The notes below the pieces were generated by a model that did not search any database, was not told the origin of the DNA, and saw only the letters and a program-made list of their open reading frames with translations. 10,264 bases of DNA from a virus (Duplodnaviria > Heunggongvirae > Uroviricota > Caudoviricetes). Shown in pieces: positions 1,369 through 4,664 of this stretch. Each line of letters begins with the position of its first letter. Position 1 is the stretch's first letter. The position numbers and the translations under genes are program-made. The stretch lies in the IMG/VR virus record IMGVR_UViG_2534681701_000009, one strand, 5' to 3'.

Positions 1369-1444
1369 GCCGATATAGCTCAGTTGGTAGAGCAGCGCAT
1401 TCGTAATGCGAAGGTCGTAGGTTCGACTCCTATTATCGGCACCA
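1369..1444 (+). tRNA. thrW: tRNA-Thr (anticodon CGU), 76 nt with encoded CCA
   Basis: GCCGATATAGCTCAGTTGGTAGAGCAGCGCATTCGTAATGCGAAGGTCGTAGGTTCGACTCCTATTATCGGCACCA: cloverleaf-compatible acceptor/T-arm pairing, GTTCGA T-loop, anticodon loop TTCGTAA giving anticodon CGT; position after proA fits thrW. Confidence 0.9.
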
Positions 1445-1461
1445 TTCAAACATCTCCCCAA

Positions 1462-1482
1462 GTCTACTAAAGTCTTTCAAAA
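1462..1482. repeat. 21-bp direct repeat copy 1 (GTCTACTAAAGTCTTTCAAAA), candidate integrase arm-type site in attL
   Basis: Near-identical copy at 1525..1545 (2 mismatches), both between the tRNA 3' end and the integrase start. Confidence 0.45.
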
Positions 1483-1524
1483 CCCCTTATAATCCGCGTA
1501 TTAAAGCCCCGCTCGTCTTTTGAC

Positions 1525-1545
1525 GTCTACTAAAGTCCCTCAAAA
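1525..1545. repeat. 21-bp direct repeat copy 2 (GTCTACTAAAGTCCCTCAAAA), candidate integrase arm-type site in attL
   Basis: Matches 1462..1482 at 19 of 21 positions; followed by tandem ATGGGGGTA at 1557..1565 and 1569..1577. Confidence 0.45.
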
Positions 1546-1609
1546 TCTACGGTCAGATGGGGGTACTTATGGGGGTATTTGCTGTTCGGTTTAGTGGAGG
1601 TACCCCCAA

Positions 1610-2824
1610 GTGAAACTCAATGCCCGTCAAATAGACACAGCCAAGCCAAAAGAGAAGGCTTACAAGCTGGCCGATGGTGGCGGTTTGTATCTCTTGGTAA
1701 AACCTAATGGAGGTAAATACTGGCGACTTAAATATCGTGTAGCTGGTAAAGAGAAGCTATTGGCACTAGGTGTTTATCCTGAGGTTACTCTAGCCGATGC
1801 TCGGGCAAAACGTGAAGATGCGAAAAGAGGTATCGCTGGTGGTATCGATCCGATGGAAGCGAAACGAGAGGAAAAGATTGCCCGGGAAACGCAGTTAAAC
1901 AACACCTTCAAAGATATTGCCATTGAGTGGCACAGCAGCAAATTAAAAAAATGGTCTGCTGGTTATGCTTCAGACATCCTCGAAGCCTTCAACAAAGATG
2001 TGTTCCCTTACATTGGCAAAAAAACCATCGCCGAAATCAAACCACTTGAACTTCTGAATGTGCTGCGTCGCATCGAGGGGCGCGGTGCTACAGAAAAAGC
2101 CAAAAAAGTGAGGCAGCGGTGCGGGGAAGTTTTCCGCTATGCAATAGTCACTGGTCGCGCAGAGTATAACCCTGCACCAGACCTTACTAGCGCGATGCAA
2201 GGCCATGAATCTAATCATTACCCTTTCCTTACAGCCAAAGAATTACCTGATTTTTTCAAGGCATTGTCCAGTTACTCAGGAAGCGCATTGGTTGTTATGG
2301 CGGCTCGTCTACTGATTATCACCGGCTTGCGGACTGGCGAACTACGTGGCGCATTATGGGATGAAATTGATTTCAACAAGGCTATCTGGGAGATACCCGC
2401 TTCACGTATGAAAATGCGGCGGACTCATATTGTGCCATTGTCTGAGCAGGCTCTTTCGCTTATTGGGAAGATTAGAGAAATAACAGGCAATTACCCTCTT
2501 ATGTTTCCCGGGCGCAATGATCCAAGGAAAACAATGAGCGAGGCCAGCATAAACCAAGTGTTTAAGCGCATTGGCTACGCTGGACGTGTAACTGGTCATG
2601 GGTTCCGGCACACTATGAGTACGATTTTGCATGAGCAGGGCTATAACACCGCGTGGATAGAAACGCAGCTCGCTCACGTTGATAAGAACTCAATTCGTGG
2701 CACATACAACCATGCGCAATATCTGGATGGAAGGCGGGAGATGCTTCAATGGTATGCCGACTATATGGATTCTCTCGAGCATGGCGGAAATGTGGTGCAT
2801 ATGGTGTTTGAAAAACACGCATGA
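1610..2824 (+). CDS. int: P4-family tyrosine recombinase / integrase, 404 aa, GTG start
   Basis: ORF directly downstream of the tRNA; GGAGG 9 nt upstream of GTG; N-terminus KPKEKAYKLADGGGLYLLVKPNGGKYWRLKYR is typical of P4-type integrases; C-terminal HGFRHT ... RGTYNHAQY carries the recombinase His/Arg/Tyr catalytic motifs. Confidence 0.9.
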   Translation: MKLNARQIDTAKPKEKAYKLADGGGLYLLVKPNGGKYWRLKYRVAGKEKLLALGVYPEVTLADARAKREDAKRGIAGGIDPMEAKREEKIARETQLNNTFKDIAIEWHSSKLKKWSAGYASDILEAFNKDVFPYIGKKTIAEIKPLELLNVLRRIEGRGATEKAKKVRQRCGEVFRYAIVTGRAEYNPAPDLTSAMQGHESNHYPFLTAKELPDFFKALSSYSGSALVVMAARLLIITGLRTGELRGALWDEIDFNKAIWEIPASRMKMRRTHIVPLSEQALSLIGKIREITGNYPLMFPGRNDPRKTMSEASINQVFKRIGYAGRVTGHGFRHTMSTILHEQGYNTAWIETQLAHVDKNSIRGTYNHAQYLDGRREMLQWYADYMDSLEHGGNVVHMVFEKHA

Positions 2825-2967
2825 AACAACTGGACAAGTATACAGAGGTTTACTAAAGTATAGGGGAGTAGATTGATAAAAACTCACAGAGGATTGCTAT
2901 TTAACAGTTAGCCCTGGAGAAGGGCAATCGCTCTTTTATAAACGAAGGTGTATTGAGCCTTCTACGT

Positions 2968-3163: not shown

Positions 3164-3268
3164 TTTGGCGTATTCGACATTTGACGCAAATAAAACTCTC
3201 GCCATTCGTTGCAGGAGGGAGTTATTGCGTCATTAGTACAGGATATTAATAAATGGCTAATTACAATT

Positions 3269-3277
3269 CATTAATTC
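3269..3277. repeat. IS1 target-site duplication, left copy (CATTAATTC)
   Basis: Identical 9-mer directly flanks the other IS1 end at 4046..4054; 9 bp is the usual IS1 duplication length. Confidence 0.9.
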
Positions 3278-3292
3278 GGTAATGACTCTAAC

Positions 3293-3796
3293 TTATTGAT
3301 AGTGTTTTATGTTCAGATAATGCCCGATGACTTTGTCATGCAGCTCCACCGATTTTGAGAACGACAGCGACTTCCGTCCCAGCCGTGCCAGGTGCTGCCT
3401 CAGATTCAGGTTATGCCGCTCAATTCGCTGCGTATATCGCTTGCTGATTACGTGCAGCTTTCCCTTCAGGCGGGATTCATACAGCGGCCAGCCATCCGTC
3501 ATCCATATCACCACGTCAAAGGGTGACAGCAGGCTCATAAGACGCCCCAGCGTCGCCATAGTGCGTTCACCGAATACGTGCGCAACAACCGTCTTCCGGA
3601 GCCTGTCATACGCGTAAAACAGCCAGCGCTGGCGCGATTTAGCCCCGACATAGCCCCACTGTTCGTCCATTTCCGCGCAGACGATGACGTCACTGCCCGG
3701 CTGTATGCGCGAGGTTACCGACTGCGGCCTGAGTTTTTTAAGTGACGTAAAATCGTGTTGAGGCCAACGCCCATAATGCGGGCTGTTGCCCGGCAT
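3293..3796 (-). CDS. insB: IS1 InsB reading frame (expressed as InsAB' fusion via -1 frameshift), 167 aa as listed
   Basis: Translation ...[96 protein letters not shown]... matches IS1 InsB; overlaps insA as in IS1. Confidence 0.9.
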
Positions 3797-3990
3797 CCAA
3801 CGCCATTCATGGCCATATCAATGATTTTCTGGTGCGTACCGGGTTGAGAAGCAGTGTAAGTGAACTGCAGTTGCCATGTTTTACGGCAGTGAGAGCAGAG
3901 ATAGCGCTGATGTCCGGCAGTGCTTTTGCCGTTACGCACCACCCCGTCAGTAGCTGAACAGGAGGGACAGCTGATAGAAACAGAAGCCAC
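3715..3990 (-). CDS. insA: IS1 InsA (transposition regulator / N-terminal part of InsAB' transposase), 91 aa
   Basis: Translation [43 protein letters not shown]... is the canonical IS1 InsA with its zinc-finger motif. Confidence 0.93.
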
Positions 3991-4045
3991 TGGAGCACCT
4001 CAAAAACACCATCATACACTAAATCAGTAAGTTGGCAGCATCACC

Positions 4046-4054
4046 CATTAATTC
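4046..4054. repeat. IS1 target-site duplication, right copy (CATTAATTC)
   Basis: Identical to 3269..3277. Confidence 0.9.
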
Positions 4055-4232
4055 GTCTCTCTGAAGTTCAAAGGCGAACTGGTTATAGCAAAGCATGGAT
4101 TTATCGTCTTATTAGTCAGGGGAGGTTCCCTAAACAGGTAAAAATTGGAAGTCGGGCAATTGCTTTTGTTGAGTCTGAAATAGATGAATGGATTGAGAAG
4201 TGTATATTAGAATCTAGAGACGAGGTGGCCTG

Positions 4233-4664
4233 ATGGAAAAGAAAAACCGCCCATTACAGGCGGCTAATTCAGATATTCGTGTATCTGATGTTACGCCCCT
4301 TACAAAATCCCTTCAAGCACCAAAGCGCACACCGAAAAAGCATCGTGCCAGAGTCTATATGCTGCGTACTGGTATAGAGGGATGGACAGAAAATGACATT
4401 CTTCGCTACTGCCGTCTGTCTTCTGGTCGTAACTATGCAACAGAGTTAGAACGCCAGCTTGGAATCACTCTGGAGCGTATCGACGAAAAGAATCCTGATG
4501 GTATCGGAACACACCTTCGCTACCGTTTCTCCTGCCGTGGTGATGTTCTGAAAGTGATCACTCATATTAACCATCTTGCGAACATAAATGATCACAACGG
4601 ACTTTCTCAGCAGGAAATTGCCGACATTCTGAAACTCTACCCGGACGCGTTTAACGCCGCCTAA
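4233..4664 (+). CDS. hypothetical protein, 143 aa, basic N-terminus; function unknown
   Basis: ATG overlaps the alpA stop (TGATG); ORF with protein-like composition; no family recognised by eye. Confidence 0.65.
   Translation: MEKKNRPLQAANSDIRVSDVTPLTKSLQAPKRTPKKHRARVYMLRTGIEGWTENDILRYCRLSSGRNYATELERQLGITLERIDEKNPDGIGTHLRYRFSCRGDVLKVITHINHLANINDHNGLSQQEIADILKLYPDAFNAA

What the first reader, a model, noticed from the sequence alone, without database searches (positions are those of the whole stretch)
1445..1609. Repeat-rich attL arm between tRNA and integrase
Two 21-bp direct repeats (1462..1482, 1525..1545; 19/21 identical) and a tandem ATGGGGGTA pair (1557..1565, 1569..1577) lie between the tRNA end and the integrase GTG. 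Tyrosine integrases of this type use arm-type sites flanking the core; these repeats are candidates.
Basis: partly seen in the sequence, partly recalled or inferred. Interest (0 to 1): 0.4.

Follow-up and report, generated by a model that had tools for sequence, protein, structure and literature searches.

The report
Integrase-binding arm of P4-like island
The repeats between the threonine tRNA gene and the integrase gene are the ordinary, well-conserved protein-docking sites of a P4-type mobile island's attachment site: one set for the integrase, and a second set most likely for its excision helper.

Summary
The window is E. coli proA-thrW followed by a P4-family tyrosine integrase, so 1445-1609 is the int-proximal (P') arm of attL.

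The ATGGGGGTA pair (12-bp phase) matches the 'attP arm sequence repeats' annotated in phage P4 (TGGGGGCA). The layout of two direct copies plus one inverted copy occurs in 71 of 86 related loci, against 24 of 4300 shuffles. All copies change together, including a tandem pair at the far end (attR) of two complete islands. The T/C choice at base 7 tracks Int residues 29, 50 and 53 perfectly.

The 21-bp repeats are probably not Int arm sites. Each is two 10-bp-phased RTCWAC hexamers; the second copy is followed by a third hexamer. They sit where the TorI excisionase sites were mapped in KplE1, with the same 63-bp block spacing. Their sequence tracks the island's AlpA/Vis-like protein, not the Int arm class. 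I read them as excisionase (RDF)/regulator sites overlapping the int promoter region.

This is a new member of a known kind. In this window IS1 has split the alpA-like gene.

The parts
1369..1444 (+). tRNA-Thr(CGT) gene (thrW), the integration target
   Evidence: ARAGORN; Rfam tRNA at 71.8 bits; proA lies upstream
1428..1446 (+). Core / crossover region TCCTATTATCGGCACCATT (3' end of the tRNA), repeated at attR of complete relatives
   Evidence: The same sequence minus one G lies at the far end of the islands in E. coli A34 (L002 ~34929-34948) and ETEC1746
1462..1482 (+). Block A (first 21-mer): hexamers GTCTAC 1462-1467 and GTCTTT 1472-1477 in 10-bp phase; putative RDF (AlpA/Vis-like) site, equivalent to KplE1 TorI block I1;2
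   Evidence: conservation peaks in 66 arms; positional analogy to KplE1
1488..1493 (+). Perfect -10 hexamer TATAAT between the two blocks, with no -35 (block A occupies that position); a possible activator-dependent promoter. Speculative.
   Evidence: Read directly; conserved as TATAAT/TATACT in thrW-clade arms; not called by the promoter scan
1525..1550 (+). Block B (second 21-mer plus a third hexamer): GTCTAC 1525-1530, GTCCCT 1535-1540, ATCTAC 1545-1550 in 10-bp phase; putative RDF site, equivalent to KplE1 TorI block I3;4;5. It overlaps the positional -35 (TCAAAA 1540-1545).
   Evidence: block starts 63 bp apart, as for the KplE1 TorI blocks
1557..1568 (+). Arm-type Int site P'1 (ATGGGGGTACTT); its last six bases (TACTTA, 1564-1569) are the positional -10 of the conserved int promoter
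   Evidence: Homologue of the P4 'attP arm sequence repeat'
1569..1580 (+). Arm-type Int site P'2 (ATGGGGGTATTT)
1581..1590 (+). Conserved GCTGTTCGGT between P'2 and P'3; role unknown (probably the start of the int 5' UTR)
1601..1608 (-). Arm-type Int site P'3, the inverted copy (TACCCCCA on the + strand), between the ribosome-binding site GGAGG (1596-1600) and the GTG start
   Evidence: the same position as P4's inverted arm repeat that overlaps the int start; present in 71/86 loci
1610..2824 (+). P4-family tyrosine integrase (Arm-DNA-bind_3 + Phage_int_M + Phage_integrase); residues L29, L50 and L53 go with the TGGGGGTA site class
   Evidence: Pfam; 42% identity to P4 Int; ~49% to IntS/Sf6/HK620 Int; co-variation
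2838..2873 (.). Block C: four more 10-bp-phased hexamers just after the int stop (GTATAC, GTTTAC, then inverted GTATAG, GTAGAT); probably a further site for the same hexamer-binding protein
3253..4233 (+). alpA/vis-like gene (candidate RDF/activator) split by IS1: codons 1-9 at 3253-3279, IS1 ~3279-4045, the rest at 4046-4233
   Evidence: tblastn/blastn against the intact A34 copy; Pfam PF05930 on the intact copy; IS1 transposase

Best explanation
Region 1445-1609 is the int-proximal (P') arm of the attL junction of a P4-family integrative element (a satellite-like island) inserted at the 3' end of E. coli thrW. It holds two different sets of protein sites.

(1) Three copies of TGGGGGTA are arm-type sites for the N-terminal arm-binding domain of the element's own integrase. 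Two are direct copies 12 bp apart (1557-1580). One is inverted and lies between the ribosome-binding site and the GTG (1601-1608). With a matching tandem pair in the other arm (at attR, outside this window), they would let the integrase bridge arm and core DNA and so assemble the recombination complex. P'1 and P'2 lie over the positional -10 of the int promoter and P'3 lies over the translation start. Int bound there should therefore also repress its own gene, as reported for P4 and KplE1.

(2) The two 21-bp repeats are two blocks of 10-bp-phased RTCWAC hexamers: 2 in block A and 3 in block B, with the blocks 63 bp apart. They are most likely bound cooperatively by the element's AlpA/Vis-family protein. 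In that role it would act as a recombination directionality factor that bends attL for excision, and it would also touch the int promoter.

Shown here: the sequence anatomy, the conservation, the co-variation and the homology to mapped systems. Inferred: every binding event and every regulatory effect.

My confidence is about 0.9 for the attL arm and Int arm-type sites, and about 0.55 for the hexamer blocks being AlpA/RDF sites.
For: Anatomy: see the observation check.

Integrase: it carries Pfam Arm-DNA-bind_3, Phage_int_M and Phage_integrase. It is 42% identical to P4 Int, with a near-identical N-terminus.

Homology to P4: the P4 GenBank record annotates 12-bp 'attP arm sequence repeats'. 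Two tandem copies and one inverted copy over the int start lie on the int side, and two tandem copies lie on the far side of the core. Their sequence is TGGGGGCA, one base from the window's motif.

Homology to KplE1: it has the same layout with GGGTAAAA at both attL and attR. Panis et al. 2010 mutated these P' sites and showed negative autoregulation of intS.

The far arm: the complete relative in E. coli A34 has TTGGGGGTActttTGGGGGTA about 65 bp from the attR core. The ETEC1746 island has TGGGGGCA-type sites in attL and TGGGGGCAtaaaAGGGGGCA at attR.

Breadth: across Enterobacterales, Int relatives of 60-97% identity sit at tRNA-Thr, Arg, Gly and SeC. The layout of 8-mer, same 8-mer 11-13 bp later (nearly always 12 bp) and inverted copy before the start occurs in 71 of 86 loci, against 24 of 4300 shuffles. 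At least seven motif classes each change in all copies at once.

Protein-DNA co-variation: Int residues 29 (L vs E/Q), 50 (L vs R) and 53 (I/L/V vs F) separate 41 TGGGGGTA loci from 24 TGGGGGCA loci without exception. The CA class is scattered over at least 4 places on a catalytic-domain tree.

Hexamer blocks: both 21-mers are conservation peaks in 66 distinct arms, while the spacer between them is not conserved. The hexamer class (GTCTAC, GTCAAC, GTCCAC) is independent of the Int arm class. It tracks the helix-turn-helix sequence of the downstream AlpA-like protein. That protein is PF05930, like the P4 excisionase Vis.

The KplE1 TorI sites form two blocks (2+3) between the core and the P' sites, with block starts 63 bp apart, the same spacing as here. 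RDF sites are generally direct repeats one helix turn apart. P4 Vis binds attP and represses Pint.
Against: No binding or expression data exist for this element.

The window's positional int promoter is weak: 5 of 12 consensus matches, and none was called by the scan. Autoregulation here is therefore inferred from relatives.

The hexamer-AlpA link rests on only 3-4 independent sequence classes. For the GTCAAC class it is confounded with the Int clade.

In the E. coli PICI EcCICFT073, AlpA did not change Pint activity.

An AlpA-like gene was found within 4 kb in only 53 of 85 loci.

The attR arm of this particular copy is outside the window.

No IHF consensus was found in this arm.
Confidence: 0.72

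Rival explanations
1. One reading: the 21-bp direct repeats are also arm-type sites bound by the integrase N-terminal domain, in addition to the ATGGGGGTA pair.
For: They lie in the arm between core and int and are conserved. Some integrases have degenerate arm sites. KplE1 P' sites contain TAAA, and the 21-mers contain CTAAAG.
Against: They share no similarity with the TGGGGGTA motif. They are absent from the attR arm, where the arm-type pair recurs. The hexamer class and the arm-motif class assort independently: GTCTAC occurs with TGGGGGTA, TGGGGGCA, GTGTATAG or TTGTATAG. The Int residues that track the arm motif do not track the hexamers. The P4 record annotates only the TGGGGGCA-type repeats as arm repeats.
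Confidence: 0.1
2. The hexamer blocks are transcriptional operators only. An AlpA-like activator or repressor, or another element-encoded regulator, uses them to switch int on or off. For example, it could bind block A at the -35 position of the perfect TATAAT at 1488-1493. They would have no architectural role in excision.
For: A perfect -10 with no -35 lies just downstream of block A. It is conserved in the thrW clade. Block B overlaps the positional -35. A further hexamer cluster (block C) lies after the int stop, outside any att site, as expected for a regulator with several operators. AlpA is an activator in EcCICFT073. From my own knowledge, not checked here: AlpA was reported in 1994 to raise intA expression in CP4-57.
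Against: In P4 and KplE1 the same class of protein is a bona fide excisionase that binds attP/attL, so the two roles are not exclusive. AlpA did not affect Pint in EcCICFT073.
Confidence: 0.2
3. The hexamer blocks are sites for a host nucleoid protein (IHF or Fis) that bends the arm.
For: P4 and lambda-type att arms need IHF. IHF-like matches occur in the attR arms.
Against: No IHF consensus match with up to 1 mismatch occurs anywhere in 1430-1612. Elements living in the same host species (E. coli) use different hexamer classes, GTCTAC versus GTCAAC. That argues for an element-encoded reader.
Confidence: 0.05
4. The direct and inverted TGGGGGTA copies act as an RNA hairpin. In transcripts reading through from thrW, it would hide the int ribosome-binding site and start codon. 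On this view the co-variation reflects base pairing rather than protein binding.
For: The predicted hairpin pairs 1569-1583 with 1596-1609. The concerted T/C and A/G changes in the direct and inverted copies would keep this pairing.
Against: The fold is no better than shuffles (z = -1.25 and +0.13). There is no Rfam match. Both direct copies change although only one can pair. The attR copies about 18 kb away change too. The changes also track Int amino acids. At most this is a secondary function.
Confidence: 0.08

Closest known systems
Satellite phage P4 attP (Pierson & Kahn 1987; features annotated in GenBank NC_001609)
   Same: The integrase is of the same family (42% identity, N-terminal domain nearly identical). 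Insertion is at a tRNA 3' end. The 12-bp-phased arm repeats have the same number, orientation and position: two direct plus one inverted over the int start, and two direct in the other arm. The motif differs by one base, TGGGGGCA versus TGGGGGTA. An AlpA/Vis-family protein is encoded. Int and Vis are reported to repress Pint.
   Different: The target tRNA differs (thrW rather than leuX). Base 7 of the arm site is T, matched by Int L29/L50/L53 instead of E/R/F. The hexamers are RTCTAC rather than P4's RTCC-type. The cargo differs (antA, ash, icd-like and primase genes; no sid/psu/delta seen in the window). The alpA-like gene is broken by IS1 here.
KplE1 / CPS-53 attL of E. coli K-12 (argW-intS; Panis et al. 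2010, PMC2951348)
   Same: The order is the same: tRNA, then core, then two RDF blocks (2+3 sites, 10-bp phase, block starts 63 bp apart), then -35, then arm sites P'1/P'2 direct at 12 bp, then inverted copies abutting the start codon. A tandem pair lies at attR. Int is ~49% identical. Negative autoregulation by Int and RDF has been shown experimentally there.
   Different: The arm motif is GGGTAAAA and the RDF motif is GTTCG/GATCG/GTCCG. The RDF TorI is encoded at the far end of the prophage and does not reach the Pfam AlpA threshold. KplE1 has two inverted arm copies, this element one.
Phage lambda attP (P/P' arm-type sites, Xis X1-X2, IHF H sites)
   Same: The logic is the same: a heterobivalent integrase, arm-type sites on both arms, and RDF direct repeats one helix turn apart.
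   Different: In lambda the Xis sites are on the P arm (attR), and int is transcribed from PI/PL rather than from a promoter inside attL. There is no sequence similarity.
Gram-negative PICIs such as EcCICFT073 (Fillol-Salom et al. 2018, PMC6092414)
   Same: An int - alpA - primase island layout. AlpA is required for induction and excision.
   Different: AlpA there was shown to be an activator of its own operon with no effect on Pint. Its att-arm sites have not been described. I did not test whether this thrW element is a PICI, a P4-like satellite or neither.

Membership tests
P4-type attachment site (int-proximal P' arm of attL) | Adjacent tyrosine integrase with an N-terminal arm-type DNA-binding domain | tested here: met
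   Pfam Arm-DNA-bind_3 (1.4e-28), Phage_int_M and Phage_integrase; 42% identity to P4 Int
P4-type attachment site (int-proximal P' arm of attL) | Insertion at the 3' end of a tRNA gene, with the core sequence repeated at the other end of the element | tested here: met
   thrW ends at 1444. The core repeat TCCTATTATCG-CACCATT lies at the far end of complete relatives A34 and ETEC1746. The attR of this copy lies outside the window.
P4-type attachment site (int-proximal P' arm of attL) | Arm repeats with P4's layout: two direct copies in 12-bp phase plus one inverted copy at the int start | tested here: met
   1557-1580 and 1601-1608, compared with P4 3942-3965 and 3915-3926; 71 of 86 related loci
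P4-type attachment site (int-proximal P' arm of attL) | The same arm motif present in the opposite (P) arm | tested here: met
   Tandem TTGGGGGTA pair in A34 attR; TGGGGGCA pair in ETEC1746 attR, matching its attL class. Shown in relatives, not in this window.
P4-type attachment site (int-proximal P' arm of attL) | Integrase physically binds the arm repeats | not testable with these tools
   Only indirect support: perfect co-variation of Int residues 29/50/53 with base 7 of the motif
P4-type attachment site (int-proximal P' arm of attL) | The int promoter lies inside the arm and overlaps the Int/RDF sites (autoregulation) | tested here: inconclusive
   A conserved TTGAAA-18 nt-(last 6 nt of P'1) scores at least 8/12 in 36 of 58 distinct arms. 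It scores only 5/12 in the window, and the generic scan found no promoter.
RDF (excisionase) binding array of the AlpA/Vis/TorI type | Several short direct repeats about one helix turn apart, between the core and the arm-type sites | tested here: met
   Hexamers at 1462, 1472, 1525, 1535 and 1545, conserved in 66 arms. The general rule is stated in PMC7498355.
RDF (excisionase) binding array of the AlpA/Vis/TorI type | A cognate RDF gene is present in the element | tested here: inconclusive
   A PF05930 AlpA-like gene is intact in relatives. In this window it is split by IS1. Its RDF activity has not been tested.
RDF (excisionase) binding array of the AlpA/Vis/TorI type | The RDF binds the repeats and is needed for excision | not testable with these tools
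   Only a correlation between hexamer class and AlpA helix-turn-helix class, with 3-4 independent classes

The most novel reading that the evidence does not exclude
The arm-site/Int N-domain pair behaves as a simple, repeatedly switched specificity code. Base 7 is T with Int L29/L50/(I/L/V)53, and C with E/Q29/R50/F53; further classes such as GTATAG exist. The switches would keep co-resident P4-family elements from cross-reacting, even when they share a tRNA target. Separately, the hexamer arrays that bracket int (blocks A and B upstream, inverted block C downstream) could form an AlpA-dependent looped switch, which has not been described for P4 or KplE1.
Probability: 0.3. Interest if true: 0.45.

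Novelty: new member of a known kind. Interest (0 to 1): 0.25.

Why it matters
As an annotation it is routine. It assigns a function to an intergenic stretch present in hundreds of E. coli genomes, defines the attL arm of the thrW island family, and separates Int sites from probable excisionase sites.

The comparative data add something usable. There is a perfect link between three Int N-domain residues and one base of the arm site, across about 65 natural variants. It suggests how arm specificity could be re-programmed in P4-family integrases, which are used as integration tools.

The IS1-split alpA-like gene predicts that this particular copy is locked in the chromosome.

Tried and rejected
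Generic sigma-70 and terminator scan of 1300-1750: no promoter, and only one terminator-like hairpin, which lies inside int.

IHF consensus scan: no match in the attL arm with up to 1 mismatch; matches occur only in the attR arms of relatives.

RNA explanations: folds of 1545-1625 and 1445-1625 are no better than shuffles. Rfam finds only the tRNA.

The attR search with the full tRNA 3' end at up to 3 mismatches failed, because the attR core lacks one G. attR was found through the arm motif instead.

The first genome fetched (strain 510016) carries a truncated island and was of no use for attR.

I looked for each element's own 13-mer between int and alpA, hoping to find an AlpA operator at the alpA promoter. 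Only 9 of 50 loci were individually significant, and the hits clustered just after the int stop rather than near alpA. This became 'block C' rather than support for an alpA operator.

The primary P4 papers (Cali 2004, Piazzolla 2006) are not held. My recollection that Vis footprints two boxes between int and the core could not be verified and is not used as evidence.

One strain with a tandem array at thrW turned out to carry a lambdoid remnant plus a P4-like element. It gave no test of cross-talk between P4-like elements.

PDB holds only DNA-free N-domain structures (3ju0, 3jtz), so residues 29, 50 and 53 could not be placed against DNA.

Full report
**Observation.** The 21-mers are at 1462-1482 and 1525-1545 (19/21 identical, 63 bp start to start). 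The ATGGGGGTA copies are at 1557-1565 and 1569-1577, 12 bp apart. tRNA-Thr(CGT) ends at 1444 and a 404-codon ORF starts with GTG at 1610.

The repeats are not chance. The degenerate 21-mer is found twice, while none of 200 shuffles gave any match. All three exact copies of TGGGGGTA in the 10-kb window lie within 1558-1608.

**Context.** The window is E. coli proA-thrW followed by a tyrosine integrase with an N-terminal Arm-DNA-bind_3 domain. After int come an IS1 and genes typical of P4-like islands: an alpA-like HTH gene, antA, ash, an icd-like gene and a primase. The integrase with its arm is present at 80% coverage or more in 809 of 5426 complete E. coli genomes. Int is 42% identical to phage P4 Int, with an almost identical N-terminus. 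It is about 49% identical to the IntS/Sf6/HK620 integrases.

**The TGGGGGTA copies are arm-type Int sites.**

- *Homology to P4.* The P4 GenBank record annotates 12-bp 'attP arm sequence repeats'. Two tandem copies and one inverted copy over the int start lie on the int side of the core. Two more tandem copies lie on the far side. Read on the int strand these are TGGGGGCAtaatTGGGGGCA ... TGCCCCCAaATG, and TGGGGGCAcaaaaGGGGGCA. That is the same number, phase, orientation and position as in the window, with one base different.
- *Homology to KplE1.* The argW-intS element of K-12 shows the same plan with GGGTAAAA. Its P' sites and its negative autoregulation were tested experimentally by Panis et al..
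- *The other arm.* In E. coli A34, which carries the same island without the IS1, the far end has the core repeat TCCTATTATCG-CACCATT. About 65 bp before it lies TTGGGGGTActttTGGGGGTA. In strain ETEC1746 a 37-kb island has an integrase about 70% identical at the DNA level and uses TGGGGGCA/TGCCCCCA in attL. Its far end carries TGGGGGCAtaaaAGGGGGCA at the same distance from the same core. The motif therefore changes at both ends together.
- *Breadth.* A scan of one genome per species returned 80 loci with Int 60-97% identical. They are all in Enterobacterales except one record titled Vagococcus sp. (L028), and they lie next to tRNA-Thr, Arg, Gly or SeC. The pattern of 8-mer, same 8-mer 11-13 bp later and inverted copy before the start codon is present in 71 of 86 loci, against 24 of 4300 shuffled arms. 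The spacing is almost always 12. At least seven motif classes exist (TGGGGGTA, TGGGGGCA, TGGGGGCC, TGTGTATA, TTGTATAG, TGxTGGTA, GGGGGTGT), and each is consistent across the copies of its own locus.
- *Protein-DNA co-variation.* Three positions of the Int N-domain separate 41 TGGGGGTA loci from 24 TGGGGGCA loci (including P4) without exception. They are 29 (L vs E/Q), 50 (L vs R) and 53 (I/L/V vs F). The CA class appears in at least four separate places on a tree built from the catalytic domain alone. An arginine going with a C:G pair and a leucine going with T:A is chemically reasonable; that last point is inference.

**The 21-mers are a different kind of site.** Each is two hexamers 10 bp apart: GTCTAC and GTCTTT in the first, GTCTAC and GTCCCT in the second. 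The second 21-mer is followed by a third hexamer, ATCTAC, at 1545. In an alignment of 66 distinct arms these hexamers are conservation peaks, while the roughly 40-nt spacer between the blocks is not conserved.

They do not recur at attR. Their class (GTCTAC, GTCAAC or GTCCAC) is independent of the Int arm class; GTCTAC, for example, occurs with four different arm motifs. Instead it follows the helix-turn-helix sequence of the AlpA-like protein encoded downstream:

- '...TGYSKAWIYRL...' goes with GTCTAC.
- '...SDCLFTDKWIYKL...' goes with GTCAAC in all 8 loci of that class.
- '...VGLKKSWIYHL...' goes with GTCCAC.

That protein belongs to Pfam PF05930, like the P4 excisionase Vis (39% identity).

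In KplE1 the excisionase TorI has five sites in two blocks (2+3) between the core and the P' sites. The block starts are 63 bp apart, the same spacing as here. RDF sites in general are direct repeats one helix turn apart. Vis is reported to bind attP and to repress Pint.

I therefore read the 21-mers as the two RDF/regulator boxes of this attL. This rests on analogy and on 3-4 independent co-varying classes, so my confidence is moderate.

**Promoter.** In 36 of 58 distinct arms a sigma-70-like promoter scoring at least 8/12 sits at a fixed place. Its -35 (TTGAAA) overlaps the second and third hexamers of block B, followed by an 18-nt spacer. Its -10 is the last six bases of the first arm repeat. 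This is the arrangement shown experimentally in KplE1.

In the window the equivalent hexamers (TCAAAA 1540-1545, TACTTA 1564-1569) score only 5/12, and the generic scan finds nothing. Autoregulation is therefore inferred for this copy, not shown. A perfect TATAAT at 1488-1493 lies just after block A, with no -35, and is conserved in the thrW clade. It could be an activator-dependent promoter. I list this as a rival or extension.

**Rivals.** IHF: no consensus match in the arm. RNA hairpin between the direct and inverted copies: predicted, but no better than shuffles; there is no Rfam family; and it cannot explain the attR copies or the amino-acid co-variation.

**State of this copy.** IS1 (about 3279-4045) has inserted after codon 9 of the alpA-like gene. 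If that protein is the RDF or activator, this island can no longer excise on its own. Int and attL look intact.

**Comparison and novelty.** This is the P' arm of a P4-family att site. The design has been known since the 1980s for P4 and was dissected in KplE1. The thrW element is a new member with its own arm-site variant and hexamer variant.

The most novel element is my own by-product: the clean Int-residue/arm-base code, and the extra hexamer cluster after int (block C). Both need experiments.

Noticed in passing
window 3253-4233: IS1 (~3279-4045, with a target duplication of about 10 bp at 3269-3278 and 4046-4055) splits the alpA/vis-like gene after codon 9. The island has probably lost its excision factor or activator.
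   Followed up: partly
window 2838-2873: Block C: four 10-bp-phased hexamers immediately after the int stop (GTATAC, GTTTAC, then inverted GTATAG, GTAGAT). In relatives of the GTCTAC class, 23 of 46 loci have at least 2 such hexamers within 80 nt of the int stop, typically ...GTAGTAGACTTCTGTAGACGAAC.... None of 10 GTCAAC-class loci do.
   Followed up: partly
window 1610-1770 (Int residues 29, 50, 53) and loci L007-L090: Int positions 29 (L vs E/Q), 50 (L vs R) and 53 (I/L/V vs F) perfectly separate 41 TGGGGGTA-type loci from 24 TGGGGGCA-type loci. The switch has occurred in several clades. L020 and L021 have near-identical hexamer blocks but swapped arm motifs and swapped residues.
   Followed up: partly
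window 1488-1493: A perfect -10 hexamer TATAAT lies between the two 21-mers, with no recognisable -35 (block A lies there). It is conserved as TATAAT/TATACT in thrW-clade arms.
   Followed up: no
window 1581-1590: GCTGTTCGGT between the second direct arm site and the inverted arm site is conserved across the thrW clade (GTTCAAT in the tRNA-Arg clade). Its function is unknown.
   Followed up: no
window 1456-1463 and 1604-1611: The 8-mer CCCCAAGT occurs just before block A and again at the inverted arm site and int start. YCCCAAGTC before block A is conserved in relatives. It may be a degenerate arm-like or core-flanking site.
   Followed up: no
L002 34929-34948; reverse complement of L010 ~36953-36970: The attR core of two different thrW islands lacks one G relative to the tRNA 3' end (TCCTATTATCG-CACCATT). 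This suggests that crossover occurs in CACCATT, or that a fixed decayed attR remnant exists. An IHF-like site (TATCAATGTGTTT) lies between the arm pair and the core in A34.
   Followed up: partly
L010 (E. coli ETEC1746, NZ_CP122727.1 3750200-3787250): A ~37-kb thrW island with a related integrase carries a complete BREX-1 system, an HsdM-like methyltransferase, Ag43 and a CbtA/YeeU toxin-antitoxin pair. The same att machinery moves very different cargo.
   Followed up: no
L092 37315-48201 (E. coli S1-INA-02-B): thrW is followed first by a lambdoid prophage remnant with an opposite-facing integrase, and then in tandem by the P4-like element. Two integrase families share this tRNA target.
   Followed up: no
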